From Candidatus Moraniibacteriota bacterium (GTDB taxonomy: Bacteria; Patescibacteriota; Minisyncoccia; Moranbacterales; DUUL01): a stretch of 64,000 nucleotides of DNA. Within the stretch, counting starts at the first letter, position 1. Every line of letters begins with the position of its first letter. Positions 36,650-61,966 of this stretch are shown here, piece after piece. The DNA is taken from assembly GCA_027008775.1 (NCBI GenBank), contig JALVDV010000010.1, positions 96,529 through 160,528 on the forward strand, written 5' to 3'. A program made the translations under genes and the position numbers. Below the pieces are notes generated by a model, which searched no databases, was not told where the DNA came from, and worked only from the letters and a program-made list of their open reading frames with translations.

Positions 36650-38404
36650 CTACACCACCCCTTTTTTCTTCATAAAGGCCAAGATACCAACGGTGATTAA
36701 GGTAGAGAAGAGAACCAAGAGAACAATGTTGGTGGCCAAACCGGTCTTGGGAGCGGAGCGACGGTAACCAAAGTCAGCCTTGGTGTGTTCGTCTTTTTCT
36801 TTGAGTTTAACAGAGGTTTGGTTGTCCAGTTTACCATCGGGGTCGTAGGTTGGAATTAGATTCTCAACATCTTTAACTACCACCCGATAATGTCCGGAGC
36901 AAAGATTCTTAATCTTGTAACGACCATGTTTGTCAGTGGTGTCACAGTATTTCTTGTTACCGCGAAAAGCGCAGACTTTAACATCAGAAATTCCTTCTTC
37001 AATATCTTCTTGAATACCGTTACCATTGGTGTCATACCAAATATAGTTGCCAATGGAAGATTGACAATCTTCTTCCTCTTCTTTTCTTTCTTCTTTGAGT
37101 TTGACGGTAACCTGATCAGAGTCGGTAATGGTTTTGGAACCAAGCTTGGCGGTAACCGTTACTTTGTTGGTGGTATCTTGGTTGATGACCACTGACTTGG
37201 TACAACTCATAGCTTCGCCAACATTCAAAGAAGTCTGGGGACAGGTGATGGTTCCCAATTGATCATCTTGAACTTGAATGTTGGTTAGTTTAGTGTCGCC
37301 GGTGTTAGTGATACGATAAGTGTAAGTGACTGTTTCTCCTTTTTTTACTTCAGTGGCGGAAGCGCTTTTTTCAACTCTAACGCCGGTGTTTTCTTTTTGA
37401 CAAACACTACTGCAACCATCGCCACTGACAGTGTTGCCGTCATCGCATTCTTCGGAGTCTTGTTTAAGGCCGTCTCCGCATTTACCTCCTTGAACAACTA
37501 CGTTTTTACAGTCACTGGAACAATAGGTACAAGAACTGTTGTAAGCCGGGGTACAAGTTTGGCCGTTGTTAGCGCCTTCATCGCATTGTTCGCCACTTTC
37601 TTTGGTGCCATTACCACAGTTGGGAGAAGGAGAAGTTTCTTTTTGACAAACACTACTACAACCATCGCCACTGACAGTGTTGCCGTCATCGCATTCTTCT
37701 CCGTCTTCCAAAACTCCGTTACCACATTGGGGAGAAGGAGTTTCATTAACTTTCTCCAAAAGCATACAAACGGGCTCAAAGCCGTGTTTGAACTTTACTC
37801 CCTTGGGTCCGGCGTGGACCACTTTGATTTGGCGCAAAGGAGAAGTTATTTGCAGAGCAGAGGAACCATAGTTAACAGCAGTGATTTTACCGGCTTCTTC
37901 CACGCCATCGGGCAGGTCTTCCGTTGTGCCGGAACGAACTCCGTTAAAGTCTATGTAGTACTGTTCGTGAGATTCATCAGCCGGGTTGGCTTGACTGCGA
38001 CCGACATAGCTGTCAAAGGATTCCAGATAAACGTTGTACTTGCCGGCGGGGATGGAGATTCCAGAAACAGTCTTTTCCCTGGGGAAATTGTGACCGTTTA
38101 AAACTCCGCCGTCGGAAACCATAATGTCACCATTGTACTTGATAAGGATATCCCCTTGTTTCTTGGTTTGCAGATGACAAACTCCGGAACAGTGATTGGC
38201 CAGATAAGTGGTGGTTTGGCGAAGGTCTTGGTTGAGAGAAGCAATCTTTTGGTTTTGCGACTGAAGGAGAACAGCGCCGAAAGCCAACAAAACAATCAGC
38301 AATAAAAAGATTCCTCCCACCAAGAGAGGTTTACGCCAAGACCATTGGTAACGAGAAGAACGGCGAGATCTTCTTGGACCACTGCTTTTTTTTCTTTGCA
38401 CCAT
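36650..38404 (-). CDS. Surface protein with Myxococcus-type Cys-rich repeats, a DUF11 domain, an SdrD-B-like domain and a C-terminal sortase-type sorting signal (copy A)
   Basis: An N-terminal TM/signal segment is followed by two CDDGNTVSGDGCSSVC repeats and then an SdrD-B-like domain. The C-terminus carries a sortase-type signal: SAPKTGLAT, a hydrophobic stretch, then KKKGVV. Confidence 0.7.
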   Translation of the reverse strand: MVQRKKSSGPRRSRRSSRYQWSWRKPLLVGGIFLLLIVLLAFGAVLLQSQNQKIASLNQDLRQTTTYLANHCSGVCHLQTKKQGDILIKYNGDIMVSDGGVLNGHNFPREKTVSGISIPAGKYNVYLESFDSYVGRSQANPADESHEQYYIDFNGVRSGTTEDLPDGVEEAGKITAVNYGSSALQITSPLRQIKVVHAGPKGVKFKHGFEPVCMLLEKVNETPSPQCGNGVLEDGEECDDGNTVSGDGCSSVCQKETSPSPNCGNGTKESGEQCDEGANNGQTCTPAYNSSCTYCSSDCKNVVVQGGKCGDGLKQDSEECDDGNTVSGDGCSSVCQKENTGVRVEKSASATEVKKGETVTYTYRITNTGDTKLTNIQVQDDQLGTITCPQTSLNVGEAMSCTKSVVINQDTTNKVTVTAKLGSKTITDSDQVTVKLKEERKEEEEDCQSSIGNYIWYDTNGNGIQEDIEEGISDVKVCAFRGNKKYCDTTDKHGRYKIKNLCSGHYRVVVKDVENLIPTYDPDGKLDNQTSVKLKEKDEHTKADFGYRRSAPKTGLATNIVLLVLFSTLITVGILAFMKKKGVV

Positions 38405-41503: not shown

Positions 41504-42583
41504 TTAAATATATTTTTCATCTTTCTTTTTCAGTTCTTTGATTATTTCTTTTACCTCCTGTGCTCTGGCTTTGGGGCAAACCAAAAGAGCGTTGTCGGTA
41601 TCAACAATAACCAGATCGTCAACTCCGATGGTGGCGATTATTTTGCCCCGGCGACCGTAAATCAAACTGCCGGAAGTGTCCAGGTTGAGACATTCTCCCT
41701 TGGTTAAATTACGCCTTTCGTCGGCCTGGGATAACAAATTTTCGTGCAGTGTGTCCCAAGTGCCGATGTCCTTCCAACCAAATTCACCTTTGATAATGAG
41801 CATATCTTTGGGATCAATTTTTTCCGTGATGGCGTAGTCAATAGAAATTTTTTCCATTTGACCGTATAATTCCCTGATTTTCTCCGGACGATTTTTTCCC
41901 TGCAATTCTTCTTTAATGGCTTGTAGAATTGTAAACGTTTGAGGTGTGTATTTTTCGTAAGCTTCCAGAAATTTACGCGGCGTCCACATATAGTAATTGG
42001 CGTGCCAAAGGTAGTTGCCCGATTTTAGATATTTTTGAGCGGTTTTAAAATCCGGTTTTTCGGTGTGTCCCAAAAATTCATAAAATTTCACGCCGTTTTT
42101 TTCCTCCAAGAGTTGACCGATCTTGGTGTAGCCCAGGGCGGTGTTTGGTTCAGTGGGAAAAATGGCGATGTCCAGCAGTTTGCCGGTTTGCTTAATCACC
42201 TCTTCGGCAGTGGCGATACTTTTCAGAAAATCGTCCACTCTGGCGATGTAGTGGTCGGAAGGAATGAAAGCCATCGGTTCGTCGGGATCAAGAAGGCTCA
42301 GTTTTAAAGCGTTAAAACCCATAGCCGGAGCGGTATCACGTCGTTCCGGTTCAATGATGATATTTTCCAAGGGAAAATCAGGCAGAATTTCTTTGACTTT
42401 TTCCGCGAGAGAAGCGGTGGTGGCGATAAATTTTTTGTCCGCCGGGTAATCTTTAAATCTGTCTAAAGTTTCTTCCAACATAGTTTTTTCGGAAGTGAGG
42501 CGACAGAATTGCTTGGGAATATCGGAACGACTCATCGGCCAAAGACGGGACCCGGAGCCACCGGCCAAAATAACTATTTTCAT
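41504..42583 (-). CDS. Mannose-1-phosphate guanylyltransferase-like NTP-transferase
   Basis: The N-terminal motif ILAGGSGSRLWP is present. Confidence 0.8.
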   Translation of the reverse strand: MKIVILAGGSGSRLWPMSRSDIPKQFCRLTSEKTMLEETLDRFKDYPADKKFIATTASLAEKVKEILPDFPLENIIIEPERRDTAPAMGFNALKLSLLDPDEPMAFIPSDHYIARVDDFLKSIATAEEVIKQTGKLLDIAIFPTEPNTALGYTKIGQLLEEKNGVKFYEFLGHTEKPDFKTAQKYLKSGNYLWHANYYMWTPRKFLEAYEKYTPQTFTILQAIKEELQGKNRPEKIRELYGQMEKISIDYAITEKIDPKDMLIIKGEFGWKDIGTWDTLHENLLSQADERRNLTKGECLNLDTSGSLIYGRRGKIIATIGVDDLVIVDTDNALLVCPKARAQEVKEIIKELKKKDEKYI

Positions 42584-42745
42584 AAATTTTCTTTAGTTTT
42601 TAAGTCTTTAAAAACCTGTTTTAATTTAGCACCAAAGAAATAGCTTGTCTAGCAAAATCGCCGGAAGATCAACTTTCGGAGGCGGTTGAAAAAGAAAACA
42701 GCCATTGCCCGGTTAGAGACAATGGCTGCGGAGAGGCCAGGAGAA

Positions 42746-43345
42746 TTATTTAATCTTTCTTCTCCCGACCAGGCCCAGGCCGGCGAGGCCTGAGCCGAAA
42801 AGGAGGATGGTCGCCGGCTCGGGCACCGGGGCTGGCGGGTTATCCACGGAAATCTCCGTTAGCTGGAGATTCCCGCACAAACCTCCGATGGCGACGACCA
42901 TGTCGTCGCGATCCCAGTCACTCCACCTGGAGGGCAGGTCCTCCAGGTGGATACTCCAGATTCCCGGAGCCGGCTGGTTCCAGAAAACGTGCTGGATTCC
43001 CTGGTCTTCGGGGGAATTCAACCGGGGATCGCTGTACCAGTCGTACAGCTCCCCAGAGGGGCTGTATGTTTGGAAATGGATTCCGAAAGACTGGAATCCA
43101 TCCCAATCATTGGCGGAGAAGGTCTGCCAGCTCCCGGGCTCGTCGCCCGCCTGGAGGACGGGCAACTGGTTTTGGGGATCGTCGGTTTTGTAGAAAAACA
43201 GTGACGATTCCCAGGATGCTTCTTCCTGGACGTCAACGACAAAAAGGCTGCCGTCCAGTTTGAAGATTGGGATTACCTGCGTGGCATTGGCCACACAGGT
43301 GAAAAAGAATAGAAAAAATAAAAATAAAAGTGGGATTTTTTTCAT
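42746..43345 (-). CDS. Secreted protein with a C-terminal PEP-CTERM sorting signal, strongly GC-shifted
   Basis: The signal peptide MKKIPLLFLFFLFFFTCVANA is AT-rich. The C-terminus reads VPEPATILLFGSGLAGLGLVGRRKIK, which is PEP, then a TM segment, then an RRK basic tail. Body codons end mostly in G or C. Confidence 0.75.
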   Translation of the reverse strand: MKKIPLLFLFFLFFFTCVANATQVIPIFKLDGSLFVVDVQEEASWESSLFFYKTDDPQNQLPVLQAGDEPGSWQTFSANDWDGFQSFGIHFQTYSPSGELYDWYSDPRLNSPEDQGIQHVFWNQPAPGIWSIHLEDLPSRWSDWDRDDMVVAIGGLCGNLQLTEISVDNPPAPVPEPATILLFGSGLAGLGLVGRRKIK

Positions 43346-43495
43346 TTTTTACCTCCCATTTCTGTGTCTCCCTGCCCCCAGGGAGACAATAAAAAGAACT
43401 AGCGACAATGGGGCTATTGCCACTTTTACTTTAAAAAATCTATCCCACCTCCTTTCATTCATTTTATTTAACGGACTTAATTAGTCCGACTTGGC

Positions 43496-43525
43496 ATTGT
43501 AAAACAGAAGTGGGTGACTGTCAAG
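43496..43525 (-). promoter_or_regulatory. Exact consensus promoter TTGACA-N17-TACAAT for the PEP-CTERM gene
   Basis: The exact hexamers with a 17-nt spacer read on the minus strand. They lie directly after a terminator hairpin at 43528..43557. Confidence 0.6.
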
Positions 43526-43527
43526 CA

Positions 43528-43557
43528 AACGCCGGGGGTTTGACTCCCGGCGTTTTA
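43528..43557. terminator. Terminator hairpin after the S74-domain gene
   Basis: The stem GCCGGG/CCCGGC is flanked by A/T runs. Confidence 0.55.
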
Positions 43558-43593
43558 GACATTGTAAAGTTGTAAGCAAGATGACTTTTCCCC

Positions 43594-44622
43594 TTATTTA
43601 TTTTCCAATTCAGCCACTTTAGCCTGCAAATCACGGATTTCCTTTTGTTGCTCTTTGACTGCTTCAATCAAAACTCCAACCAGACCGTCATAGTCAACTG
43701 TTTTGTAGCCATTGGGGCTCTCATTAACCAAGCTGGGGAAGTCTTTTTCAATTTCTTGAGCGATTACTCCGATATTTTTCTGGTCATTGCTTTTCAATTT
43801 ATACTCCACTCCGCGAATGTTCTCCAATCTCTGTAAAGCATTTTCCACTGTTTTGATGTCTTTTTTTAATCTAACATCAGAGCCCCGACGGAAATTGGCT
43901 GCCCAGACATCAGCAAATTGTCCTTTACCTTTACCAACTACCAAGCCGGCATTTCTGCTTCTGGATCCATCCACTCTAATCCCGATGGATCCGGCCAGGC
44001 TGGGAGCGTTGGGAGAAACATCAAAAGCGTAAATCCAGGGACCCCGGGTGTTATCAACTTTTTGATATTCACTGTTGTTAGTGACAGTGCCAATTCTAAA
44101 TTTGCCCTGAGAGACGAAAGTTTTACCAAAAATGTTAGCGTACTGGTTGTGACCGCGACCAACTACCAAAGCGCTATCCGGTCCTTGATTGCCAACGCGG
44201 ATACCGATGCTTCCGTTCATATTGCTCACGCCCGGCACTTGATTGATGGCATAAATCCAGGGTCCTCTCATCGCATCTATTCGGTTGTACCCGGCGGTGC
44301 TGTTAACCATTCCTATTTGCAGATACGGACCGGAGGCCTGGGCTCCTTGAGCATACAATCTGACAGCGCCGTTGGCAAAAATATTACCATTAGCCAACAA
44401 GGCTGTGCTTCGGTTACCGGCAACGTTAACGGCCAAACCGCCGTCTTTAGCTTGCCAAATTGGGCCGGTGTTTAAAGGCGCTTTCAAGTTACTGGCCGGG
44501 GGATTGGAAGATGGCTCCGTCCAATTGGTTGATTGGGCACTGGTTGATTGGACATAAACCAAGGCTGCCAAAGCAACAAGTCCCGTCGCAACCACCATTT
44601 TGAATTTACTATTCATTTTCAT
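43594..44622 (-). CDS. Secreted tail-fibre-like protein with a C-terminal peptidase S74 intramolecular-chaperone domain
   Basis: It has a signal peptide and two internal roughly 100-aa repeats. The C-terminus reads SDVRLKKDI…GVEYK…IGVIAQEIEKDFPSLV…VDYDGLVGVLIEAVKEQQKEIRDL, which matches the auto-cleaving chaperone of phage tail spikes. Confidence 0.7.
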   Translation of the reverse strand: MKMNSKFKMVVATGLVALAALVYVQSTSAQSTNWTEPSSNPPASNLKAPLNTGPIWQAKDGGLAVNVAGNRSTALLANGNIFANGAVRLYAQGAQASGPYLQIGMVNSTAGYNRIDAMRGPWIYAINQVPGVSNMNGSIGIRVGNQGPDSALVVGRGHNQYANIFGKTFVSQGKFRIGTVTNNSEYQKVDNTRGPWIYAFDVSPNAPSLAGSIGIRVDGSRSRNAGLVVGKGKGQFADVWAANFRRGSDVRLKKDIKTVENALQRLENIRGVEYKLKSNDQKNIGVIAQEIEKDFPSLVNESPNGYKTVDYDGLVGVLIEAVKEQQKEIRDLQAKVAELENK

Positions 44623-44686
44623 TTTGCTTTTTTATTAATTAATTTGTTATATTTAAAAAATTTTAAACCTTATTTGTTGATTACCA

Positions 44687-44974
44687 CTATTCTCCCATTA
44701 CCTGGGAAAGCTGATCTCTATTCATTTGAGTAACAGCCCCGTCCTGTCTGTTCATTATCTCCGAGAGTTTGTTGGCGTTGATTTTGGCCGGTTTAATATC
44801 GGAGGAATTTGATTTACTGCCCGAACCACCCAAGATGGCTGTTTTGGTAATGTCAAAATTAACTCCACTGGCGTTAATTAAATAAACCAAAAAGCCGGCC
44901 AGAATGAAAGATACCACCACCACAAAAGCTATGACCCTTACTTTCTCGGCTGATTTTTCCTTTTGTCTGTTCAT
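44687..44974 (-). CDS. Small single-TM protein
   Basis: It has an N-terminal TM anchor. Confidence 0.4.
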   Translation of the reverse strand: MNRQKEKSAEKVRVIAFVVVVSFILAGFLVYLINASGVNFDITKTAILGGSGSKSNSSDIKPAKINANKLSEIMNRQDGAVTQMNRDQLSQVMGE

Positions 44975-45019
44975 TTATTTGTTTGAAATTTTATTTGTTA
45001 GAATTATCTACCAGGCCCC

Positions 45020-45874
45020 CTAGTTAACTTTAACCGGTAAACTCGTTTCCAAATTATGATAGTTGTATTTGACCTGGACATTTCCGTTACCCTTATTTTT
45101 GGCTTGAATAATCTTGTTAACCTCTCCCGCCAAATCAAAGGCTGAAGAATTTTCCGTCCAGGTGGCCAAACCGGTGACATCTAAACCGGAACAACTGTTT
45201 TTAGAAGCGGAAAGACAAGCTTTGAGGTTTTTATTATCGCCCTCACTCATCGTTAAGCTTGTGAGAGGATTGTTGTTGCCACAAGTATTTTCACAGATAA
45301 CCAAATTTTTGCCAAAAGAATCTATTCCACAGGCTTTGGCCTGACCGAAACTTACCCAACCAAGCTCATTAGACCAGGCGTAACCGGACAGTTTCCCGTG
45401 AGAATCCAGATGGACTCCGTAGTCTTGCCCGTTTGTAACTTTTCCCCTCATCTTTATCCAACCTCTCCAACCACCAGAATTGTTTATTTTTTCCTCTTGA
45501 GCGATGCCCACAATTCTGGCCCAACCGGTCAAATTGTTACCTTCTTTTCTTACCCCTCCTTTATCTCCATTGGGCGCGTTGCAATTGGCTTGGTAAGCGC
45601 TTCCACAATGCTCTTGGGGACTAAAGTCCACCCAGCCCAGATTGGAACTCCAGGCGTAACCGGTAATATTACCGTCACCGCTTGGTATTTTTAAATTATA
45701 AGAAATACTGCCGTTTTGGTTGGCATTGGTGGCGCTAATCCAACCAAAATTAGTGTTGCTGCCAGCCCAAAACCAACCGACAATATTATTGTCATTAGGG
45801 GCGGCTTTGACTAGAAAGGTAATTCCAATAATTGCCAAACTGAGCAGAGAACCGTAGATTATTTTTTTGAGCAT
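45020..45874 (-). CDS. Secreted protein with tandem G(Y/W)AWS…LGW(V/I)xF repeats
   Basis: A signal peptide is followed by at least three aromatic GW repeats and a Cys-rich C-terminal part. Confidence 0.5.
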   Translation of the reverse strand: MLKKIIYGSLLSLAIIGITFLVKAAPNDNNIVGWFWAGSNTNFGWISATNANQNGSISYNLKIPSGDGNITGYAWSSNLGWVDFSPQEHCGSAYQANCNAPNGDKGGVRKEGNNLTGWARIVGIAQEEKINNSGGWRGWIKMRGKVTNGQDYGVHLDSHGKLSGYAWSNELGWVSFGQAKACGIDSFGKNLVICENTCGNNNPLTSLTMSEGDNKNLKACLSASKNSCSGLDVTGLATWTENSSAFDLAGEVNKIIQAKNKGNGNVQVKYNYHNLETSLPVKVN

Positions 45875-46024
45875 ATTTTTGTTTTGAGATTTATTTTAAA
45901 AACCGTGATTGCTTTTGTCTCTATTTTAAGTCATAAAAAAAATCCTGTCAAAGTTTTCAGTGTTTCCTTGTGTTTGGATTATAGCATAACTTCTAATTCC
46001 TAACAACTTTAGTCAACCGGAAAA

Positions 46025-46465
46025 TTAAAATAATCGGGAGGATTCAGCGTCCAAAGCTTTGTTAACCAAACTATCGGCCTCTTTATTTTTTTCTCTGGGG
46101 ATGTGTTGAAAGTTCACTTTTTGAAAATCAAGCGTGAGATTCCAAATTTTGATGAAGTATTTTTGAATCTTTTCGTCTTTCAATTTGTATTGATGGTTAA
46201 GTTGTTTAACTGCCAATTCCGAATCCAGAAAACAATGAATAGTGAAATTTTTCGCAACTTGTTTGCCCAGATGTTTTTTTGCTTCCTGCAGGGCGTAAAT
46301 CAGAGCTTCATATTCGGCCTCATTGTTTGTGCGTTGTGAGCCGATGTAACGATGAAAGGTAATTTTTGTTTGATTTGGTAAAATAATCACCCCGCCAATC
46401 GCCGCCGGTCCGGGATTACCGCGAGAGCCGCCGTCGGTGTGAATTGTTACATTTTTTTCAGTCAT
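46025..46465 (-). CDS. rnhA: Ribonuclease HI
   Basis: The RNase H motifs TDGGSRGNPGPAAIG and NNEAEYEALIYAL are present. Confidence 0.88.
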   Translation of the reverse strand: MTEKNVTIHTDGGSRGNPGPAAIGGVIILPNQTKITFHRYIGSQRTNNEAEYEALIYALQEAKKHLGKQVAKNFTIHCFLDSELAVKQLNHQYKLKDEKIQKYFIKIWNLTLDFQKVNFQHIPREKNKEADSLVNKALDAESSRLF

Positions 46466-46556
46466 TGTTTTTACAGAATGATTTTTCAAAATTAATTCAT
46501 TGATTTTTCGCAAAATAAATTCTTCAAAATTGGAGATGGGAAAAATTTAAACAGAT

Positions 46557-47632: not shown

Positions 47633-48400
47633 TTACTGTTTACTTCTTTGGATGACTTCTTTGGCCAGTTGACGATAAGCTCGCGCCCCACTGTTGAAAG
47701 TGTCAAAATTGAGAATTGATTTGCCGAAACTGGGTGCTTCCGCCAAACGAACAGTACGAGGAATAACCGCCGAAAAAACTTTGTCGGGAAAATGTCGTCT
47801 AACTTCCTTAACCACCTGCTTGGCCAGCTTGTTCCGTTTGTCGTACATCGTCATCAATATTCCACCCAGGCGCAAAGAGGGTTGCAGATTTTGTTGAACC
47901 AAATCTATAGTGTTCAAAAGTTGACCCAAGCCTTCCAAAGCAAAGTATTCGGTTTGAACGGGAATAATCACTTCGTCGGCGGCCACCAGACCGTTGATGG
48001 TTAACAGACCCAAGCTGGGCGGAGAATCTATAATGATGAAGTCATAGAGATGTTTGACTGTTTCCAAAACTTTTTGTAGGCGATATTCCCTGTTTTCCAG
48101 TTCGGCCAATTCCACGGTGGCGCCGGCCAAATCCTGGTTGGCGGGCAAGATATGCTGATTTTCCGTTTCCGTTTGCAGGATCAAATCCAAGGGGTGAGCG
48201 TTCCCCAAAAGCGCTTCGTAAAGTCCGGCAGACAGATTGGGTACATCAACACCTAATCCACTGGAAGCGTTGGCTTGAGGATCAAGGTCAACTAAGAGCA
48301 CTTTTTGGCCTTCATCGGCCAAGTAGCTGGCCAAGTTGATGGCCGTGGTGGTTTTGCCCACTCCTCCTTTTTGATTGATTAGGGAAATGGTTTTGCCCAT
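47633..48400 (-). CDS. parA: Chromosome partitioning ATPase ParA/Soj
   Basis: The deviant Walker A motif KGGVGKTT is present. Confidence 0.92.
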
Positions 48401-48555
48401 AAAAATGACGACACTAAAAAAATTTAGAAAATTTTGTTCCGGGTTTCATTCTGCTTGTCACATTATACTAAAAAACAAAACACCGGGCAAACGAATCGGT
48501 TTTAGATATGAAAAAAGCGGAAGCTTCGGCTTCCGCTGAGAAACCATTTTTCCCC

Positions 48556-49032
48556 TCACCTCCTTGGTGGAGGTGGAGGTGGAGATGGAGATGGAGGGTG
48601 TCGCCTCATCGGTTGCCCCTGGTGATAATAAGGGGCGGAGCGCTGAGACGCCGATGCCGGCGGTGGAGGGGGCACCGCCTGCACCTGTGATGGACGAGGT
48701 GTTGGCGTTGGAGGAGGGGGTGAGATATACCTCGCCCGTTGCCCCTGCTGATAATAAGAGGCGGACCGGCGAGGTGTTGGCGCCGGAGGGGGCGCCGGGC
48801 GGGGGAAGCGCTCTTGGAGACAGACACGTTGTCCCCCTAGGTACACGCAAACCCGGCCGAAACGCCGGGTTGCGTACGCCCCGTGATTTTTCCCCCACAG
48901 CTGAAGGCTGTGGGAAGAAAATTTGAATCCCTTCCCCCGGAACTCCCAAAAAATACTTGGGAGTTCCCACTGGGCCAGAACCGGCCCAGTGGAAAAAATG
49001 AAAAAAATAAAAAATAAAAAAATTTTTTTCAT
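48556..49032 (-). CDS. Secreted proline-rich repeat protein, GC-shifted
   Basis: A strong SD (GAAGGAGGT) precedes the ATG. The signal peptide MKKIFLFFIFFIFSTGPVLAQ is AT-rich. The body is a Pro-rich tandem repeat of the form RSAxYYxQGQ…PPPP. Confidence 0.6.
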   Translation of the reverse strand: MKKIFLFFIFFIFSTGPVLAQWELPSIFWEFRGKGFKFSSHSLQLWGKNHGAYATRRFGRVCVYLGGQRVCLQERFPRPAPPPAPTPRRSASYYQQGQRARYISPPPPTPTPRPSQVQAVPPPPPASASQRSAPYYHQGQPMRRHPPSPSPPPPPPRR

Positions 49033-49101
49033 ACTACCTCCTTCGCCCCGATTACCGGGGCTCTAAATTTTTTTAATTTTATAAGGTACTCATCTGCCTT
49101 G

Positions 49102-49130
49102 ATTGTACAACATTTTTGGAAAAATGTCAA
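49102..49130 (-). promoter_or_regulatory. Exact consensus promoter TTGACA-N17-TACAAT for the Pro-rich protein gene
   Basis: Read on the minus strand, the 5'UTR then contains a GCCCCGG-taat-CGGGGC hairpin immediately before the SD. Confidence 0.6.
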
Positions 49131-49278
49131 TGGTTTAAAGAACTCGTCAGGCGCGATAAGGTGGCTTACGTTGGCTGAGCAACCCTCCCCGACCGGGGTT
49201 TTTGCTCGGCTTTTTCAGCTAGAAAAATACGTTCTAAGACTGGAAAATTCCAGCGCATTAGAAATGAAGTTGATAAAA

Positions 49279-49312
49279 ACAGCCCCGCTCGCGCGAGCGG
49301 GGCTGTTTTGCT
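49279..49312 (-). terminator. Terminator after rplL
   Basis: The hairpin AAAACAGCCCCGCTCGC-GCGAGCGGGGCTGTTTT is present. Confidence 0.8.
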
Positions 49313-49333
49313 GTGACGACAAATAAATTAGTT

Positions 49334-49783
49334 TTATTTCAATTCCACAGTAGCGCCGGCTTCTTCCAATTGTTTTTTCATCTCTTCCGCTTCTTCTTTG
49401 GCCACTTTTTCTTTGATAACTTTAGGCGCTCCGTCCACAATATCTTTGGCTTCTTTTAAGCCAAGTCCAGTGATGGTCTTGACAGCCTTGATAACATTTA
49501 TTTTAGAATCTCCGGCGGAAACCAATTCCACGTCAAATTCTGATTTTTCTTCTCCGGCGCCACCCTCTTCTCCAGCGCCACCGGCAACGGCTCCGGCAAC
49601 AGCCACGGGAGCGGCGGCGGATACTCCGAATTTTTCCTCCAAGATTTTGACCAGTTCCGCCAAATCCAAAACACTCATTTTTTCAATTTCCTCCACCAGT
49701 TTTTGGAATTTTTCGGGAACCTCAACTTCTTTTTTCTCTTCCTTAGTTTCTGCGGAAGTCTCTTTTTTCTTGTCTTCAGACAT
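49334..49783 (-). CDS. rplL: 50S ribosomal protein L7/L12
   Basis: An Ala/Gly-rich hinge and the L12 C-terminal domain are present. Confidence 0.92.
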
Positions 49784-54993: not shown

Positions 54994-57900
54994 TTAGTAG
55001 GTTTCGCGGAAAGTATGAGGTCGACAAGGCGGACACTGCTTAACCTCATTGTGACAGCTTTTGCCGGTGGCCGATTTGTATTCCTTTTCTGACACTTGTA
55101 TGTAGGGAGCGTTGTTGGGGAAACATTTCTTGTCGTGTTTACGCGCTTGTTTTGTTATGATTACTCTTTCTCCACAATGTCCGTTACAGGCGCCAGGATT
55201 GATAGTTATACAACTATAGTCAAACTTCGGCACGCATTCGCAATTCTCATCTCCACCGGCTAAATCGTAGTAATCTTTAGGAACCAAGTTACCATAATTG
55301 ATATTGGTGTCTGTGAAACTACCGATATGTCTATTTGATTCTCCGGCTGTTCCACAGCGCCAGACATATTTTCCATCAATAAAGGCTAGACTATTAAAAT
55401 TTCCAAACCGACAGGCATCAGTTAATGATTTATATGGCGAGGACGTTGGATCATCATTACAAGCCGCCTTACTTTTAGCTCTACAAGTTGTTGTTTGCCC
55501 ATTTAAGCTACACTGCCAAGAATAACCTCCTTCATATTCTGATTGGTCGGTAAAATTAGAAACAACAGCATTTGCCGGTTGACATAATCCTTCCGAGTTT
55601 TCATTTAACTCATGAGTACCATAAGTCCCATCGGAAGCCGGGCCACAATCAACCCTTTGGGAGGCATGACATTCGGCATTTTTACCAGTTCCCCTGCCAA
55701 GGCATTGCCAGTTGGCCACGCCGTTAACAAATTCTGGATTAGTTGGCAATGGTTGCCCTGTGCTACAAAGTGGTTTACTAGGAGTAACAGCTGTTGACGG
55801 ATAATTGTTGCGACTAGCGCCAGGATTACAAACACCATCTGCATTGCAATTATCAACAGTGACTTCCCAAGAAAGCCGTCGAGCAGGTAAAATTATTGGC
55901 TGATCGTTAATTGCCTTCTGAGCAAGATTAAAGAAATCATCACTAGGTGACCACCAGTGAACCTTGACCGTTCCTTCTTTCTTTTCTGGATCCCAACTTT
56001 GCAGAGCATTTAAATCTCTGGCTGTTTGATAAGCGGTATATTCACGCCAAACTCCGTCACCGCATATTACCAGTACTTTTTCTCCAGAATCTTTAAAATG
56101 TTCAATACTCGTTGATTCGTAGTTTATTGCTGGGTTTCTTGGTATCCCAATATTTCTTAAACTAGATATCAATGACCAAATTTTGGCTTGAGTTTCACCA
56201 ATATGAGCCGTGACTCTTACTTTACCAGATTTTCCGGGTTGAGCTTGACAAATTAATCCATTACACTTCAAAATACTGTTGTCACTGGAAGTCAAATAAA
56301 CATTCGGTTTTTTAGCCGTCCAATAAATATAACCTTTGTTATAAGGGAAGGCTCCTTGTATTTCCAAGCTATTTCCGTAATCCGGGTGTTTTATATTACC
56401 TCCAAAACAGGAAGCATTTCTGTAATTATCACAAAATTTCCCAAAAGGAGTATCGTAAACATCACCAGCGCTGGTAAAAAACAGTTCCGGTTGATATCTA
56501 TAAGTCGCATTACCGTTACAAGATAAAACTGACTGTCCATTAATTTTGTGAGTTACTGTCACAATGTTATGGGCTATATAATAATAGGCTGGCTTCTGTT
56601 CTTTGACCAAGTTAGAATAATATCTGATGTGGAAATGGTTGATTGTGCTGGCTACACTTCCGCTGTAAGCCAAAGCTGGTTTGCCGGATGCAATTACGAG
56701 CAATCCTCCCGAAAACAGTAGCAAGAAAATAATTGTAAAATAGTTCTTCATTTTTTTAAGCAATAAAACCAAAATTATTATCAATACCGCTCCCAATACT
56801 ATCAGTATAACCGTTATAGTGTTTTTGCCTATGTTTTTGCTTCCCGCCAGACCTGTTTGCTGGCCGGATTTGGATTTCAATAATTTCCTGTCCAGTTCTA
56901 CCGAGTATTGATCCATTAGCATACCGGAAGAGTCCTTGAGCTGAGCGGTTAATTTTAAATAATCGTAGTCTTTTTTAGCCGGAAAACTTTTCTTAACAGC
57001 CTGCATTGCACCAGTGATATTTCCTTGGCGGAAAACCCTCGTTACCAAATGCCCCTCTTTATCTGTTAACTTCACTTCCACTGTTCCCACAAACCTATCT
57101 TTATTGGTATTGTGGAAACAAGTAAATAAGTCAGCTGTTTCTCCTTTTTTCAAGGGAAATTTCGTTAAACCGGGGTAATTTAATCTGCCCCAATTAATTC
57201 CTTCTGTGACTACCCTGGTATTGATAATTGTCTTAGTTCCCTCTGTCTCGGCAATTGTTTGCAAGTAGTAAACCGACTTATTGGCTGAGGGTATGGTGTA
57301 AGTAACTGTTTTTTGGGAATTTGCCGGCAACACTATCTCCTTTTCTTGATTGTCAACAAGGTCTTTTTCATTTAAGGCGTCCCAGAAATATAATTTTTGA
57401 GACAACTTAGCCTTGACCTCATGGCCTAAGGGATTGACAAGAGTTTGTTCAATAACCACTTTTGTTTCCGGCGCCACTTTGGGCCAATTGCCGATGTGGT
57501 TGTATTTTTCTCCGTTCACTTTTGTTGCCTCTCGCTGAAAGTGGATGTTGTTTTTGATGGTAGAAGAGACGGTAAATTCCGAGCTACCGCCGACAATTTC
57601 GTTAGTAAATGGCAAACCGGCCAAATTAAATTTTTTGCCGACAGAGAAAAAGAAATCAGCCCGATATCTGCCTTCGGCCAAATTGGTGGGAATCGCCCAT
57701 TTAAAAGCAACCTTTTGAGAGGAGTTTTTGTCTAGAACAAGATTTTTTTTGGCAATAAATTCATCAACAATATCATTGCCCTGTTGATCAAACTTATCGC
57801 TGACCTTGCTTATTCGGACAAAGAGATTGCCGTCAAAAATCGGGTATCTATTTTTATTAGTTAATTTTCCCTGAAAGGTTACTTTTTCCTCCGGTTGGTA

Positions 57901-58236
57901 TTGAAGTTTGTCCGGACTAAGATTGATGTCAACCGATTGAAACTTGTAGTATTGAAAACAATCTACTAAACCACTTTCACTTTTCTTTCTTTGTTCTTTT
58001 TTTAGAAAATGATTTTGGGGTGAAGAGACTTCTCCTTCAGCTGTTTTATTGCCAGAAAAATTACTTGTTCCCGATTTCCCGTTGGTAACTGTCGCTTGAG
58101 TTGTTCCTTCCGGCCCAGCCCATTCTAAGGGTAAGGCGGAATCAGAAGTGGCTAAAGCCTGCCCTATTCCCGTCAACCAGACAATTAAAAACACTGGCAA
58201 GAACAATAAAACTGATTTTGTGAATAGTTTGCGCAT
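54994..58236 (-). CDS. Large secreted protein (1080-aa ORF), probably two fused genes: a sortase-substrate domain followed by a signal peptide and a Cys-rich C-terminal domain
   Basis: It has an N-terminal signal peptide. An internal segment reads SGQQTGLAGS, a hydrophobic stretch, then LLLKK. This is followed at once by MKNYFTIIFLLLFSGGLLVIASG, which looks like a signal peptide. The junction sits on an A7 homopolymer at 56751-56757. Confidence 0.55.
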   Translation of the reverse strand: MRKLFTKSVLLFLPVFLIVWLTGIGQALATSDSALPLEWAGPEGTTQATVTNGKSGTSNFSGNKTAEGEVSSPQNHFLKKEQRKKSESGLVDCFQYYKFQSVDINLSPDKLQYQPEEKVTFQGKLTNKNRYPIFDGNLFVRISKVSDKFDQQGNDIVDEFIAKKNLVLDKNSSQKVAFKWAIPTNLAEGRYRADFFFSVGKKFNLAGLPFTNEIVGGSSEFTVSSTIKNNIHFQREATKVNGEKYNHIGNWPKVAPETKVVIEQTLVNPLGHEVKAKLSQKLYFWDALNEKDLVDNQEKEIVLPANSQKTVTYTIPSANKSVYYLQTIAETEGTKTIINTRVVTEGINWGRLNYPGLTKFPLKKGETADLFTCFHNTNKDRFVGTVEVKLTDKEGHLVTRVFRQGNITGAMQAVKKSFPAKKDYDYLKLTAQLKDSSGMLMDQYSVELDRKLLKSKSGQQTGLAGSKNIGKNTITVILIVLGAVLIIILVLLLKKMKNYFTIIFLLLFSGGLLVIASGKPALAYSGSVASTINHFHIRYYSNLVKEQKPAYYYIAHNIVTVTHKINGQSVLSCNGNATYRYQPELFFTSAGDVYDTPFGKFCDNYRNASCFGGNIKHPDYGNSLEIQGAFPYNKGYIYWTAKKPNVYLTSSDNSILKCNGLICQAQPGKSGKVRVTAHIGETQAKIWSLISSLRNIGIPRNPAINYESTSIEHFKDSGEKVLVICGDGVWREYTAYQTARDLNALQSWDPEKKEGTVKVHWWSPSDDFFNLAQKAINDQPIILPARRLSWEVTVDNCNADGVCNPGASRNNYPSTAVTPSKPLCSTGQPLPTNPEFVNGVANWQCLGRGTGKNAECHASQRVDCGPASDGTYGTHELNENSEGLCQPANAVVSNFTDQSEYEGGYSWQCSLNGQTTTCRAKSKAACNDDPTSSPYKSLTDACRFGNFNSLAFIDGKYVWRCGTAGESNRHIGSFTDTNINYGNLVPKDYYDLAGGDENCECVPKFDYSCITINPGACNGHCGERVIITKQARKHDKKCFPNNAPYIQVSEKEYKSATGKSCHNEVKQCPPCRPHTFRETY

Positions 58237-58298: not shown

Positions 58299-60053
58299 CT
58301 AAACCACCCCTTTTTTCTTCATAAAGGCCAAGATACCAACGGTGATTAAGGTAGAGAAGAGAACCAAGAGAACAATGTTGGTGGCCAAACCGGTCTTGGG
58401 AGCGGAGCGACGGTAACCAAAGTCAGCCTTGGTGTGTTCGTCTTTTTCTTTGAGTTTAACAGAGGTTTGGTTGTCCAGTTTACCATCGGGGTCGTAGGTT
58501 GGAATTAGATTCTCAACATCTTTAACTACCACCCGATAATGTCCGGAGCAAAGATTCTTAATCTTGTAACGACCATGTTTGTCAGTGGTGTCACAGTATT
58601 TCTTGTTACCGCGAAAAGCGCAGACTTTAACATCAGAAATTCCTTCTTCAATATCTTCTTGAATACCGTTACCATTGGTGTCATACCAAATATAGTTGCC
58701 AATGGAAGATTGACAATCTTCTTCCTCTTCTTTTCTTTCTTCTTTGAGTTTGACGGTAACCTGATCAGAGTCGGTAATGGTTTTGGAACCAAGCTTGGCG
58801 GTAACCGTTACTTTGTTGGTGGTATCTTGGTTGATGACCACTGACTTGGTACAACTCATAGCTTCGCCAACATTCAAAGAAGTCTGGGGACAGGTGATGG
58901 TTCCCAATTGATCATCTTGAACTTGAATGTTGGTTAGTTTAGTGTCGCCGGTGTTAGTGATACGATAAGTGTAAGTGACTGTTTCTCCTTTTTTTACTTC
59001 AGTGGCGGAAGCGCTTTTTTCAACTCTAACGCCGGTGTTTTCTTTTTGACAAACACTACTGCAACCATCGCCACTGACAGTGTTGCCGTCATCGCATTCT
59101 TCGGAGTCTTGTTTAAGGCCGTCTCCGCATTTACCTCCTTGAACAACTACGTTTTTACAGTCACTGGAACAATAGGTACAAGAACTGTTGTAAGCCGGGG
59201 TACAAGTTTGGCCGTTGTTAGCGCCTTCATCGCATTGTTCGCCACTTTCTTTGGTGCCATTACCACAGTTGGGAGAAGGAGAAGTTTCTTTTTGACAAAC
59301 ACTACTACAACCATCGCCACTGACAGTGTTGCCGTCATCGCATTCTTCTCCGTCTTCCAAAACTCCGTTACCACATTGGGGAGAAGGAGTTTCATTAACT
59401 TTCTCCAAAAGCATACAAACGGGCTCAAAGCCGTGTTTGAACTTTACTCCCTTGGGTCCGGCGTGGACCACTTTGATTTGGCGCAAAGGAGAAGTTATTT
59501 GCAGAGCAGAGGAACCATAGTTAACAGCAGTGATTTTACCGGCTTCTTCCACGCCATCGGGCAGGTCTTCCGTTGTGCCGGAACGAACTCCGTTAAAGTC
59601 TATGTAGTACTGTTCGTGAGATTCATCAGCCGGGTTGGCTTGACTGCGACCGACATAGCTGTCAAAGGATTCCAGATAAACGTTGTACTTGCCGGCGGGG
59701 ATGGAGATTCCAGAAACAGTCTTTTCCCTGGGGAAATTGTGACCGTTTAAAACTCCGCCGTCGGAAACCATAATGTCACCATTGTACTTGATAAGGATAT
59801 CCCCTTGTTTCTTGGTTTGCAGATGACAAACTCCGGAACAGTGATTGGCCAGATAAGTGGTGGTTTGGCGAAGGTTTTGGTTGAGAGAAGCAATCTTCTG
59901 GTTTTGCGACTGAAGGAGAACAGCGCCGAAAGCCAACAAAACAATCAGTAATAAAAAGATTCCTCCCACCAAGAGAGGCTTACGCCAAGACCATTGGTAA
60001 CGAGAAGAACGGCGAGATCTTCTTGGACCACTGCTTTTTTTTCTTTGCACCAT
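58299..60053 (-). CDS. Surface protein with Cys-rich repeats, DUF11, SdrD-B-like domain and C-terminal sorting signal (copy B)
   Basis: Starting from MVQRKK it is 584 aa and about 99% identical to copy A, with one D/N difference seen. Confidence 0.7.
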   Translation of the reverse strand: MVQRKKSSGPRRSRRSSRYQWSWRKPLLVGGIFLLLIVLLAFGAVLLQSQNQKIASLNQNLRQTTTYLANHCSGVCHLQTKKQGDILIKYNGDIMVSDGGVLNGHNFPREKTVSGISIPAGKYNVYLESFDSYVGRSQANPADESHEQYYIDFNGVRSGTTEDLPDGVEEAGKITAVNYGSSALQITSPLRQIKVVHAGPKGVKFKHGFEPVCMLLEKVNETPSPQCGNGVLEDGEECDDGNTVSGDGCSSVCQKETSPSPNCGNGTKESGEQCDEGANNGQTCTPAYNSSCTYCSSDCKNVVVQGGKCGDGLKQDSEECDDGNTVSGDGCSSVCQKENTGVRVEKSASATEVKKGETVTYTYRITNTGDTKLTNIQVQDDQLGTITCPQTSLNVGEAMSCTKSVVINQDTTNKVTVTAKLGSKTITDSDQVTVKLKEERKEEEEDCQSSIGNYIWYDTNGNGIQEDIEEGISDVKVCAFRGNKKYCDTTDKHGRYKIKNLCSGHYRVVVKDVENLIPTYDPDGKLDNQTSVKLKEKDEHTKADFGYRRSAPKTGLATNIVLLVLFSTLITVGILAFMKKKGVV

Positions 60054-60140
60054 GCTATTTGTTTTTATTTTTTTAAGGAAAAGCAAAAAGACAATTATTT
60101 CTTCGCTTAGATTGTAACACAAAAGGGAATTGGGGGCAAT
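58303..60140 (-). repeat. 1.84-kb direct repeat, copy B
   Basis: It is near-identical to 36654..38490 with one homopolymer indel. The upstream non-coding part is more diverged than the coding part. Confidence 0.95.
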
Positions 60141-60825: not shown

Positions 60826-60886
60826 AATCTTCCGTTAAAATTGTTCGTTTTTGGTTTGATTGTGATAGCGTAATAATATTTTATTA

Positions 60887-61861: not shown

Positions 61862-61966
61862 AATATTTTCATCATCAAACAAACAACCCCTGCATCAAAC
61901 CTTTTTCCCAGGTTTGGACTTTGGTTATTTGATCTTGTTTTAATTGTATCATTTTATCAATAGAAT

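What the first reader, a model, noticed from the sequence alone, without database searches (positions are those of the whole stretch)
42746..45874. Four-gene secreted-protein cluster as a candidate surface-appendage system
Four consecutive minus-strand genes lie between manC-like and rnhA. They are a GW-repeat protein, a single-TM small protein, a tail-fibre/S74 protein and a PEP-CTERM protein. All carry export signals. Two are compositionally foreign. An internal terminator and consensus promoter separate the last gene. The combination of an auto-processing fibre and a PEP-CTERM anchor protein is not a described system.
Basis: inference. Interest (0 to 1): 0.65.

Follow-up and report, generated by a model that had tools for sequence, protein, structure and literature searches.

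The report
Conserved Patescibacteria surface-fibre operon plus stray lectin
Three of the four genes form a conserved, undescribed operon of ultra-small (CPR/Patescibacteria) bacteria that probably builds a phage-tail-fibre-like surface fibre, while the fourth (PEP-CTERM) gene is an unrelated, foreign, fast-evolving lectin-like neighbour.

Summary
All four minus-strand ORFs exist at the stated coordinates with the stated domains. They are not one system.

- **Conserved module.** The GW-repeat protein, the small bitopic membrane protein and the S74 fibre form one operon. The same order recurs in at least 3 further S74-bearing lineages and in 12 species-level loci where the fibre lacks S74. Genes of the fibre's N-terminal family lie within 3 genes of a GW gene in 38 of 78 Patescibacteria loci (Fisher p 4e-11).
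- **Family annotation.** The GW region and the fibre N-module have no Pfam match. The GW profile finds 8,195 cluster representatives. GW genes also sit inside type IV pilus operons in 18 of 80 loci.
- **PEP-CTERM gene.** It has its own promoter, structured leader and terminator. Its GC3 is 0.69 against 0.42 for the window, and it has a GGAGG ribosome-binding site that is rare here. Its dN is about 10 times that of its neighbours. Its fold resembles LecB-type lectins. It sits beside the fibre only in near-identical strains, and a 37% homolog sits alone elsewhere. No exosortase is encoded in the window.
- **Best reading.** This is a cell-surface trimeric adhesion fibre, analogous to Bdellovibrio MAT fibres, with GW and membrane partners of untested role.
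- **Scores.** New variant of a known kind; interest about 0.5.

The parts
45923..45951 (-). Candidate promoter of the three-gene operon (TTGACA-17-TAAAAT), in the 150-nt gap after rnhA
   Evidence: Consensus scan, 11 of 12 matches. This is a consensus match only; function was not shown.
45020..45874 (-). Gene 1: secreted GW-repeat protein (284 aa). It has a signal peptide, four G[YW]xW..GW[IV]xF beta-hairpin repeats (residues ~33-176) and a C-terminal Big_2-like Ig domain (~190-284).
   Evidence: - ORF; repeats.
- No Pfam or NCBIfam hit for the GW region.
- AF2 model with mean pLDDT 73.5; the Ig-like C-terminal domain is confident.
- Foldseek and PDB profile hits are all to Big_2/Lig Ig domains.
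- 47% identical to the L003 homolog.
- dN/dS 0.04-0.12 between strains.
- The GW profile finds 8,195 cluster representatives.
44687..44974 (-). Gene 2: small bitopic membrane protein (95 aa). It has a basic N-terminus, one TM helix (~14-33) and an external tail ending in two short (K/Q)LS(E/Q)(I/V)M repeats.
   Evidence: - ORF and hydropathy.
- dN/dS 0-0.05 between strains, so it is a real gene.
- The architecture (TM plus tandem short repeats, 92-192 aa) recurs directly after GW genes in many loci, although the sequence is not alignable.
43594..44622 (-). Gene 3: tail-fibre-like protein (342 aa). It has a signal peptide (~1-29), a conserved N-module 'WTEPSSNPPASNLKAPLNTG..Q.K.GGL', two copies of a ~65-aa shaft/knob module (~105-170 and ~179-244) and a C-terminal S74 intramolecular chaperone.
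   Evidence: - Pfam PF13884.
- PHROG tail-fibre families, some spanning residues 32-342.
- PDB match to phage S16 gp37 (6F45), E 4e-8.
- Alignment with homologs; internal repeat.
- The N-module family is found next to GW genes in 38 of 78 loci.
43597..43881 (-). S74 chaperone/autoprotease domain of the fibre (residues 248-342). The predicted cleavage Ser248 is codon 43879-43881, and Lys253 lies in the motif S-D-V-R-L-K.
   Evidence: S248, D249 and K253 are invariant in 8 homologs. The motif aligns with SDRRIKKDIK of 6F45. The SDxxxK catalytic motif is as described in PMC10769870. Cleavage itself was not tested.
43527..43556 (-). GC-rich hairpin ending the three-gene operon (terminator-like, with a weak T-tract)
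   Evidence: RNA fold -22.8 kcal/mol, z -5.2. Identical in strain L001.
43496..43524 (-). Own promoter of the PEP-CTERM gene (TTGACA-17-TACAAT)
   Evidence: Consensus scan, 11 of 12 matches; sequence read directly.
43346..43495 (-). Structured 150-nt leader of the PEP-CTERM gene, ending in a GGAGG ribosome-binding site
   Evidence: - Fold -44.7 kcal/mol, z -3.2.
- The hairpins are conserved in L001.
- No significant Rfam family; ylbH gives only 20 bits against a cut-off of 50.
- Only 4 of 55 window genes have an SD-like motif.
42746..43345 (-). Neighbour gene, not part of the module: a PEP-CTERM protein (199 aa). It has a signal peptide, a LecB/DUF4114-like beta-sandwich (~25-165) and a PEP-CTERM tail (173-197).
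   Evidence: - Pfam and NCBIfam.
- AF2 model with pLDDT 69.
- Foldseek best hits are RS-IIL, CV-IIL, LecB and BC2L-C lectins (E 3e-4, prob 1.0, TM normalised to target 0.51-0.58).
- One homolog hits DUF4114 at 2e-4.
- GC3 0.69.
- dN 0.09-0.18 and dN/dS 0.21-0.25.
- Only 7 homologs were found among 5.8 billion clusters.
42698..42729 (-). Intrinsic terminator of the PEP-CTERM gene
   Evidence: 13-pair stem followed by TTTTCTTTTT. Conserved in L001.

Best explanation
The region holds two independent units.

**Unit 1 (45951-43527, minus strand).** This is a three-gene operon conserved in Patescibacteria.
- Shown: the fibre protein has a Sec-type signal, a conserved N-terminal module, a phage-tail-fibre-like shaft and a C-terminal S74 domain with an intact Ser-Lys dyad.
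- Inferred from the S74 family: three chains fold around the C-terminal chaperone. The chaperone then cuts itself off at Ser248, leaving a short mature trimeric fibre (~215 residues per chain) on the cell surface.
- Inferred from conservation pattern and by analogy to Bdellovibrio MAT fibres: the conserved N-module is cell-proximal and the variable part points outward to bind another cell, the host of an episymbiont.
- Inferred from co-localisation only: the GW-repeat/Ig-like protein and the bitopic membrane protein are the fibre's cell-side partners. The membrane protein would act as an anchor. The GW protein would act as an adaptor or adhesin module that also serves type IV pili in other lineages.

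**Unit 2 (43524-42698).** This is a separately transcribed, horizontally acquired, rapidly diversifying gene. It encodes a secreted LecB-like (probably Ca-dependent, sugar-binding) beta-sandwich with a PEP-CTERM tail. It is not part of the fibre module. With no exosortase in sight, the tail may simply act as a C-terminal membrane anchor.
For: **Module conservation**
- Close strains keep all the genes.
- L003/L014 (Moraniibacteriota) has a GW protein (47% identity), a 142-192-aa TM protein and an S74 fibre (43% identity) in a different genomic context.
- L094 and L095/096 have the same triad in two further contexts, confirmed with local HMMs.
- Among 80 GTDB species loci found with the GW profile, fibre-N-family genes occupy 53 of 401 gene slots within +/-3 genes. 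Beyond that they occupy 6 of 395 slots (Fisher p 4e-11).
- The exact order GW -> small TM -> fibre-N occurs in 12 of those loci.

**Operon structure**
- The intergenic gaps are 45 and 64 nt, with a promoter upstream and a hairpin downstream.

**S74 domain and selection**
- Searches support the S74 assignment and its dyad.
- All three genes are under purifying selection (dN/dS 0-0.16).

**Tail-fibre likeness**
- The window fibre matches tail-fibre PHROGs, as do non-S74 paralogs.
- This mirrors the S74/NS74 split of MAT fibres. Those also have a conserved N-domain after the signal peptide and an unidentified surface partner (PMC10769870).

**GW in pilus operons**
- In L045 the order is PilB-PilT-PilC-pilin-pilin-GW-PilD-pilins.
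- 18 of 80 loci contain pilus machinery genes.

**Separateness of the PEP-CTERM gene**
- Own promoter, leader and terminator.
- GC3 z of about 3.5 and a GGAGG site.
- 61-72% nucleotide identity where the flanks are 94-100% identical, and dN about 10 times the neighbours.
- A homolog sits alone.
- No GW, fibre or S74 gene lies near PEP-tail relatives in metagenomes.
- Lectin-like fold.
Against: - No experiment or co-folding links the three proteins physically; the case rests on gene neighbourhood.
- The small TM proteins are not alignable across lineages; only their architecture is shared.
- About half of the GW loci have neither a fibre nor a pilus gene within 6 kb, so GW proteins are not obligate fibre partners.
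- The window's GW protein lacks the C-terminal [WFY]xE tail and the second Ig domain present in its closest relatives.
- The GW region of the AF2 model is only moderately confident and has no structural match, so its role as anchor, adaptor or adhesin is open.
- Whether the fibre's N-terminal hydrophobic segment is cleaved or retained is unknown.
- The lectin assignment rests on a pLDDT-69 model built from 6 sequences, with TM scores of about 0.5.
- An exosortase elsewhere in the genome cannot be excluded.
Confidence: 0.6

Rival explanations
1. One reading: all four genes form one surface-appendage system, in which the PEP-CTERM protein anchors or partners the auto-processing fibre.
For: The genes are adjacent, share a strand and all carry export signals. 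The four-gene order is kept in six independent assemblies of the same species cluster.
Against: - A hairpin and an own promoter separate the PEP-CTERM gene.
- It has foreign GC3 and a foreign-looking SD site.
- It is missing from every other lineage with the triad and from all 80 GW loci.
- Its 37% homolog is solitary.
- Its evolutionary rate is decoupled from the other three genes.
- No exosortase is in the window.
Confidence: 0.07
2. The fibre gene is a leftover of a prophage (a phage tail fibre) and has no cellular role. GW and the small protein are unrelated neighbours.
For: The S74 domain and shaft match many phage tail-fibre PHROGs and phage S16 gp37.
Against: - The flanks are housekeeping genes (parAB, rnhA, manC, secA), and no other phage gene was seen in the annotated flanks.
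- The fibre has a signal peptide, which phage fibres lack.
- Selection is strongly purifying (dN/dS 0.02-0.16).
- The same triad sits in three other chromosomal contexts.
- The GW family is absent from 2.9 million viral contigs.
Confidence: 0.04
3. The GW protein is primarily a type IV pilus accessory or tip adhesin, comparable to the non-pilin PilX/PilY1-like proteins of Saccharibacteria. Its adjacency to fibre genes reflects clustering of host-attachment genes, not a shared structure.
For: GW genes lie between pilins and PilD in full pilus operons. In Saccharibacteria, large Sec-signal proteins in pilus loci are proposed tip adhesins (PMC11623550).
Against: - No pilus gene is in this 64-kb window.
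- Pilus-linked and fibre-linked GW loci barely overlap: 5 loci have both.
- The fixed order GW -> TM -> fibre with short gaps points to co-expression.
Confidence: 0.15
4. The genes are simply a secretome islet: independent secreted proteins that accumulate in permissive intergenic sites, with no functional coupling.
For: The small TM protein is not conserved in sequence. The region tolerates insertions: the PEP-CTERM gene here, and a toxin-antitoxin pair in L001.
Against: The order is conserved over 43-47% protein identity and across four different genomic contexts. The adjacency is statistically enriched.
Confidence: 0.1

Closest known systems
Mosaic adhesive trimer (MAT) fibres of Bdellovibrio bacteriovorus (S74 and non-S74 subgroups; Caulton et al. 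2024, PMC10769870)
   Same: - Both are cell-encoded, Sec-exported, phage-tail-fibre-like proteins.
- Both have a conserved module right after the signal peptide and variable distal parts.
- In both, some members end in an S74 SDxxxK autoprotease/chaperone and paralogs lack it.
- Both belong to a bacterium that must attach to other bacteria.
- In MAT fibres the cell-surface partner of the N-domain is unknown, and a link to type IV pili has been suggested.
   Different: - The phylum and envelope differ (Patescibacteria).
- This fibre is much shorter (342 aa against ~900-1,100 aa).
- The N-module ('WTEP..PP.GN..AP[LI]N') was not shown to be homologous to the MAT N-domain.
- Here the fibre gene is embedded in a fixed operon with a GW-repeat protein and a bitopic membrane protein, which the passages I read of the MAT paper do not mention.
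Phage tail fibres and tailspikes with a C-terminal intramolecular chaperone (Peptidase_S74; e.g. K1F endosialidase, T5 pb1, S16 gp37 6F45)
   Same: The S74 domain has an invariant Ser-Lys dyad and sits at the C-terminus of a fibre shaft.
   Different: This protein has a signal peptide, sits in a chromosomal housekeeping context, has no virion genes nearby, and has partner genes that are absent from viral contigs.
PEP-CTERM/exosortase protein sorting (Haft et al.; TIGR02595, PF07589), including DUF4114+PEP-CTERM proteins
   Same: The 199-aa protein has a signal peptide and a canonical tail (PVPEPATILLFGSGLAGLGLVGRRKIK) scoring above both curated cut-offs. One family member hits DUF4114.
   Different: The host is a Patescibacterium. 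No exosortase is in the 64-kb window or in the 20 kb around the Parcubacteria homolog. The gene looks imported.
LecB/PA-IIL family of calcium-dependent fucose/mannose lectins
   Same: This is the best structural match of the predicted beta-sandwich. From my memory of LecB, the motif E135-D136...D143-x-D145-x-D147-D148-M-V-V resembles the LecB calcium loop E-D-x-x-D-x-D-x-N-D-A-V-V.
   Different: There is no sequence-level match to the family. The model is of moderate confidence. The protein is membrane-tethered rather than soluble.
Non-pilin adhesin candidates in Patescibacteria type IV pilus loci (PilX1/PilX2 of Nanosynbacter lyticus; PMC11623550)
   Same: GW-family genes occur between pilin genes and pilD without a prepilin signal. 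This resembles the Sec-type large proteins proposed as pilus tip adhesins.
   Different: Homology between GW proteins and PilX1/2 was not tested. In this window there is no pilus locus; the GW gene is coupled to a fibre instead.

Membership tests
Peptidase_S74 intramolecular-chaperone fibres | C-terminal S74 domain above the curated threshold | tested here: met
   PF13884 scores 57.2 bits against a cut-off of 22, at residues 248-299. PDB 6F45 matches at E 4e-8.
Peptidase_S74 intramolecular-chaperone fibres | Catalytic Ser-Lys dyad in an S-D-x-x-x-K motif | tested here: met
   S248-D-V-R-L-K253. S248, D249 and K253 are invariant in 8 homologs. The motif definition is from PMC10769870.
Peptidase_S74 intramolecular-chaperone fibres | Trimerisation and autoproteolytic release of the chaperone | not testable with these tools
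   This needs expression of the wild type and an S248A mutant, followed by SDS-PAGE or mass spectrometry.
PEP-CTERM/exosortase sorting system | PEP-CTERM tail (PEP motif, TM helix, basic cluster) plus an N-terminal signal peptide | tested here: met
   PF07589 scores 29.7 against 20.7. TIGR02595 scores 23.9 against 16. The signal peptide is MKKIPLLFLFFLFFFTCVANA.
PEP-CTERM/exosortase sorting system | A cognate exosortase (EpsH/Xrt, PF09721) in the same genome | tested here: inconclusive
   Seven multi-pass membrane proteins of the window (plus three other large envelope proteins) were scanned. Six of the seven are BacA, MscS-like, SecD, SecF, M50 and a small exporter; the seventh (193 aa) has no Pfam hit. 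No exosortase is in the 20 kb around homolog P0181. The rest of the genome could not be read.
Bdellovibrio-type MAT fibres | Signal peptide followed by a family-wide conserved N-terminal domain, with variable tips in S74 and non-S74 subgroups | tested here: met
   The conserved N-module is present in more than 50 paralogs. S74 is present in only a few of them. Non-S74 members hit tail-fibre PHROGs. This shows a shared architecture, not shared ancestry.
Bdellovibrio-type MAT fibres | Sequence or structural homology of the N-domain to the ~130-aa MAT N-domain | not tested
Type IV pilus system | PilB/PilC/PilD and prepilins in the locus | tested here: not met
   No PilB, PilT, PilC or PilD homolog and no prepilin motif is in the window. 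GW relatives elsewhere do sit in pilus operons.
Listeria-type GW modules and choline-binding (CW_binding) repeats | A match to the Pfam GW or CW_binding_1 models | tested here: not met
   No such hit at E <= 1 in 14 family members or in the window protein.
LecB/PA-IIL lectins and DUF4114 | A family HMM match and calcium-binding acidic loop | tested here: inconclusive
   - The fold match has E 3e-4 and TM about 0.5.
- DUF4114 is hit by 1 of 6 members at 2e-4.
- The window protein itself has no HMM hit.
- The acidic motif is present by inspection.
Prophage / phage tail module | Neighbouring virion, baseplate or lysis genes | tested here: not met
   The flanks are parA, parB, rnhA, manC, secA and ribosomal proteins. 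GW, the small TM protein and the PEP-CTERM protein have no meaningful PHROG hit.

The most novel reading that the evidence does not exclude
The GW-repeat family is a Patescibacteria-specific docking or adhesin module shared by two kinds of surface filament: type IV pili and Sec-exported S74/non-S74 trimeric fibres. The family has thousands of members and no Pfam model. On this reading, the GW -> bitopic membrane protein -> fibre operon encodes a previously unrecognised host-attachment organelle of these episymbionts. The conserved fibre N-terminus ('WTEP...') and the [WFY]xE C-terminal tails of GW proteins would be its assembly signals.
Probability: 0.25. Interest if true: 0.75.

Novelty: new variant of a known kind. 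Interest (0 to 1): 0.5.

Why it matters
How ultra-small CPR/Patescibacteria recognise and hold on to their host cells is largely unknown beyond type IV pili (PMC9894109, PMC11623550). This work gives a concrete, widely conserved gene set to test:
- a phage-like, self-processing fibre;
- two dedicated partner proteins;
- a large unannotated GW protein family whose genes neighbour both fibre genes and pilus operons.

It also parallels the predator Bdellovibrio, where the cell-surface partner of the MAT fibres is still unidentified. GW-like partners suggest what to look for there.

The PEP-CTERM lectin is a smaller curiosity. It is an apparently imported, fast-evolving Gram-negative-style surface protein in a phylum where I found no report of exosortases.

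Tried and rejected
**Ideas tested and rejected**
- DGR-type or repeat-driven hypervariation of the PEP-CTERM gene. No template-like repeat occurs anywhere in the window.
- A riboswitch or known leader upstream of the PEP-CTERM gene. Only a sub-threshold ylbH hit was found (20 bits against 50), and nothing at gathering level in the whole window.
- The GW protein as a Listeria GW module, a choline-binding repeat or any other Pfam, NCBIfam, PADLOC-independent or PDB sequence family. No hit to the GW region; only the Ig domain matches.
- A structural neighbour for the GW domain. Foldseek against PDB and BFVD returned only Big_2/Ig-driven hits with TM about 0.25.
- A viral origin for the module. 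The GW family is absent from viral contigs.
- The high GC of the fibre as a sign of foreign origin. GC3 is normal, so the excess lies in codon positions 1 and 2, reflecting Gly/Ala-rich composition.

**Searches that led nowhere**
- The first GW alignment was too diverse for the locus search.
- A metagenome scan for relatives of the PEP-CTERM lectin found mostly matches to the tail alone, from contigs of many GC contents. No donor lineage was identified.
- Literature searches for PEP-CTERM, exosortase or S74 in Patescibacteria/CPR found nothing relevant.

Full report
**1. Observation**

The four ORFs are real and lie exactly where stated: 45020-45874 (284 aa), 44687-44974 (95 aa), 43594-44622 (342 aa) and 42746-43345 (199 aa). 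All are on the minus strand, between a ManC-type nucleotidyltransferase (41504-42583) and an RNase HI gene (46025-46513).
- Pfam finds Peptidase_S74 in the 342-aa protein and PEP-CTERM in the 199-aa protein. It finds nothing in the other two.
- The 284-aa protein has four G[YW]xW..GW[IV]xF repeats.
- Each protein starts with a hydrophobic signal or anchor segment.
- After the fibre gene comes a stable hairpin (-22.8 kcal/mol, z -5.2), then TTGACA-17-TACAAT.
- The claim of two compositionally foreign genes holds for only one. The PEP-CTERM gene has GC3 0.69, against a window mean of 0.42 (sd 0.078). The fibre gene has GC3 0.46.

**2. Organism and context**

The window also carries tmRNA, tRNAs, secA, secDF, parAB and ribosomal protein genes. 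All relatives of the GW protein are from Patescibacteria/CPR MAGs, and the closest are labelled Moraniibacteriota. Only 4 of 55 genes have a Shine-Dalgarno-like motif.

**3. Close strains**

Six independent assemblies keep parA-parB-rnhA-GW-TM-fibre-PEP-manC-secA.
- Against strain L001, DNA identity is 94-100% across the region. It drops to 61-72% inside the N-terminal domain of the PEP-CTERM gene.
- For the PEP-CTERM gene, Nei-Gojobori estimates give dN 0.09-0.18 and dN/dS 0.21-0.25.
- For GW, the TM protein, the fibre, manC and parB, they give dN 0.000-0.026 and dN/dS 0-0.16.
- So all four genes are functional, but the PEP-CTERM gene evolves about ten times faster at the protein level. Its divergence pattern also looks mosaic (alignment).

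**4. Distant relatives: a three-gene module**

A Moraniibacteriota genome (L003/L004/L014) has a GW protein (47% identity), a 142-192-aa bitopic protein and an S74 fibre (43% identity). They sit between groES and rpsF, with no PEP-CTERM gene.

Two further lineages repeat the triad in other contexts:
- L094: 429-aa GW, 138-aa TM protein, 285-aa S74 fibre.
- L095/096: 422-aa GW, 142-aa TM protein, then 270-aa and 269-aa S74 fibres.

A GW profile retrieved 80 species-level loci. I analysed these with my own ORF calls and HMMs.
- S74 is rare among them: only L014 has it.
- The fibre's N-terminal module has the form signal segment, then 'AWTEP[ST]xxPPxGNxxAP[LI]NxGxxxQxKxGGL', often followed by 'GNVGIGTxxPxxKL'.
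- This module is present within three genes of the GW gene in 38 of 78 loci.
- It fills 53 of 401 gene slots at offsets -3 to +3, against 6 of 395 further away (p 4e-11).
- The exact order GW -> small TM protein -> fibre-N protein occurs in 12 loci.

The small proteins are not alignable. They share an architecture of basic N-terminus, one TM helix and tandem short repeats. The window protein ends in two such repeats, KLSEIM and QLSQVM.

**5. What the parts are**

*Fibre.*
- The S74 domain aligns with phage S16 gp37, SDRRIKKDIK against SDVRLKKDIK. S248, D249 and K253 are invariant.
- Several PHROG tail-fibre families match most of the length.
- The shaft/knob module just before S74 is duplicated in the window protein.
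- Non-S74 paralogs in other loci also match tail-fibre PHROGs and have no Pfam family.

*GW protein.*
- AF2 gives a confident C-terminal Ig-like domain and a moderately confident beta-rich GW region.
- All sequence and fold matches are to Big_2/Lig-type Ig domains, so the GW region is uncharacterised.
- The GW profile finds 8,195 cluster representatives at E <= 1e-3 and 4,125 at E <= 1e-10. Some of these hits come through the Ig domain alone.
- The family is absent from viral contigs.
- In 18 of 80 loci the GW gene lies near type IV pilus machinery genes. L045 shows a full operon, PilB-PilT-PilC-pilin-pilin-GW-PilD-pilin-pilin. Pilus-linked and fibre-linked loci overlap little.

*PEP-CTERM protein.*
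- AF2 (pLDDT 69) gives a beta-sandwich. Its best PDB neighbours are the LecB/PA-IIL/RS-IIL/BC2L-C calcium-dependent lectins (E 3e-4, prob 1.0).
- One homolog hits DUF4114.
- Invariant acidic residues D136, D143, D145 and D148 form a motif that, from my memory of LecB, resembles its calcium loop.
- Only seven homologs were found in 5.8 billion clusters. Five of the seven, including the window's own allele, come from this species cluster.
- The 37% homolog in a Parcubacteria MAG sits alone between a PALP enzyme gene and infB.
- A metagenome scan found essentially only matches to the tail, and no GW, fibre or S74 gene nearby.
- None of the seven multi-pass membrane proteins scanned from the window is an exosortase.

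**6. Mechanism**

*Shown:*
- the gene order and its conservation;
- domain content and an intact catalytic dyad;
- separate promoter, leader and terminator for the PEP-CTERM gene;
- foreign composition of the PEP-CTERM gene and its canonical GGAGG site.

*Inferred from the S74 family:* Sec export, C-terminally templated trimerisation and self-cleavage at Ser248.

*Inferred from conservation pattern and the MAT analogy (PMC10769870):* the conserved N-module faces the cell and the variable part faces the target.

*Inferred from neighbourhood only:* the GW protein and the TM protein are the cell-side partners. Whether GW acts as an anchor, an adaptor or an adhesin cannot be decided. Its presence in pilus operons recalls the non-pilin adhesin candidates of Saccharibacteria (PMC11623550).

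**7. Comparison and novelty**

S74-capped fibres on bacterial cells are known from the MAT fibres. The PEP-CTERM motif and DUF4114/LecB-like domains are also known.

I could not find described any of the following:
- the fixed GW-TM-fibre operon of Patescibacteria;
- the GW family itself;
- the GW family's dual association with fibres and pili.

I therefore rate the finding a new variant of a known kind. The four-gene 'system' as proposed is not supported.

**8. Verdict**

- Interest is 0.5. This is a solid, testable lead on CPR host attachment.

Noticed in passing
window 48400-49334 (minus strand; ORF 48556-49032): A GC-rich stretch (0.58) between parA and rplL, where no gene was called in relatives' assemblies, looks like a complete transcription unit.
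- It has TTGACA-17-TACAAT, a hairpin, GGAGG and an ATG.
- The 158-aa ORF has a signal peptide (MKKIFLFFIFFIFSTGPVLAQ) and proline-rich repeats.
- A terminator hairpin follows.
- Strain L012 lacks one repeat unit.
- Its promoter, SD site and signal peptide resemble those of the PEP-CTERM gene.
   Followed up: partly
C-termini of GW-family proteins in loci L014-L093; window 54994-58236: A tail motif [WFY]xE[VIT..] lies within the last 10 residues (e.g. ..DDWREVTP, ..PLPKWKEVAPF).
- It occurs in 32 of 71 GW proteins, against 17 of 765 other ORFs in the same loci (p 7e-26).
- It also occurs on other large secreted proteins.
- The window's 1,080-aa secreted protein ends ..HTFRETY.
- It may be a Patescibacteria C-terminal sorting or docking tag.
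- It resembles the fibre's mature N-terminus, WTEP.
- The window's own GW protein lacks it.
   Followed up: partly
window 36650-38404 and 58299-60152 (minus strand): Two paralogous surface proteins of 584 and 617 aa share a near-identical C-terminal part and the same C-terminal TM anchor (..GLATNIVLLVLFSTLITVGILAFMKKKGVV). The 584-aa one was scanned and carries DUF4215, DUF11/DUF7507 and SdrD_B domains. DNA identity is about 97% over ~890 bp.
   Followed up: no
L001 3457-4159 and L002 2552-3254 (between parB and rnhA): A sister strain carries a Polbeta nucleotidyltransferase / NTase_sub_bind (toxin-antitoxin-like) gene pair inserted next to the fibre operon. The pair is absent from the window.
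   Followed up: no
window 43346-43495 (minus strand): The 150-nt leader of the PEP-CTERM gene is unusually structured (z -3.2). It contains a terminator-like hairpin with a T-run (43424-43401) and a perfect GTCTCCC...GGGAGAC hairpin, both conserved in strain L001. It may be an attenuator. No Rfam family matches. In L001 gene callers read through it, giving a 238-aa product.
   Followed up: partly
window-wide: Only 4 of 55 genes of at least 100 aa have a Shine-Dalgarno-like motif upstream; most leaders are A/T-rich. Canonical GGAGG is seen before the PEP-CTERM gene and the unannotated ORF158 (the two GC-rich genes), and also before the 113-aa ORF at 4206-4547.
   Followed up: partly
window 60000-64000: GC falls to 0.27-0.33 at the right end of the window. 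This may be a separate low-GC island.
   Followed up: no
L039 7307-7690, L049 7307-7702: In some Paceibacterota-type loci the gene after GW is not the bitopic repeat protein. It is a ~130-aa Cys-containing membrane protein (..CGxxGxxxCxxCHLF..WFEYPC), followed by RNase Y. Arrays of up to five fibre-N paralogs lie upstream of GW.
   Followed up: no
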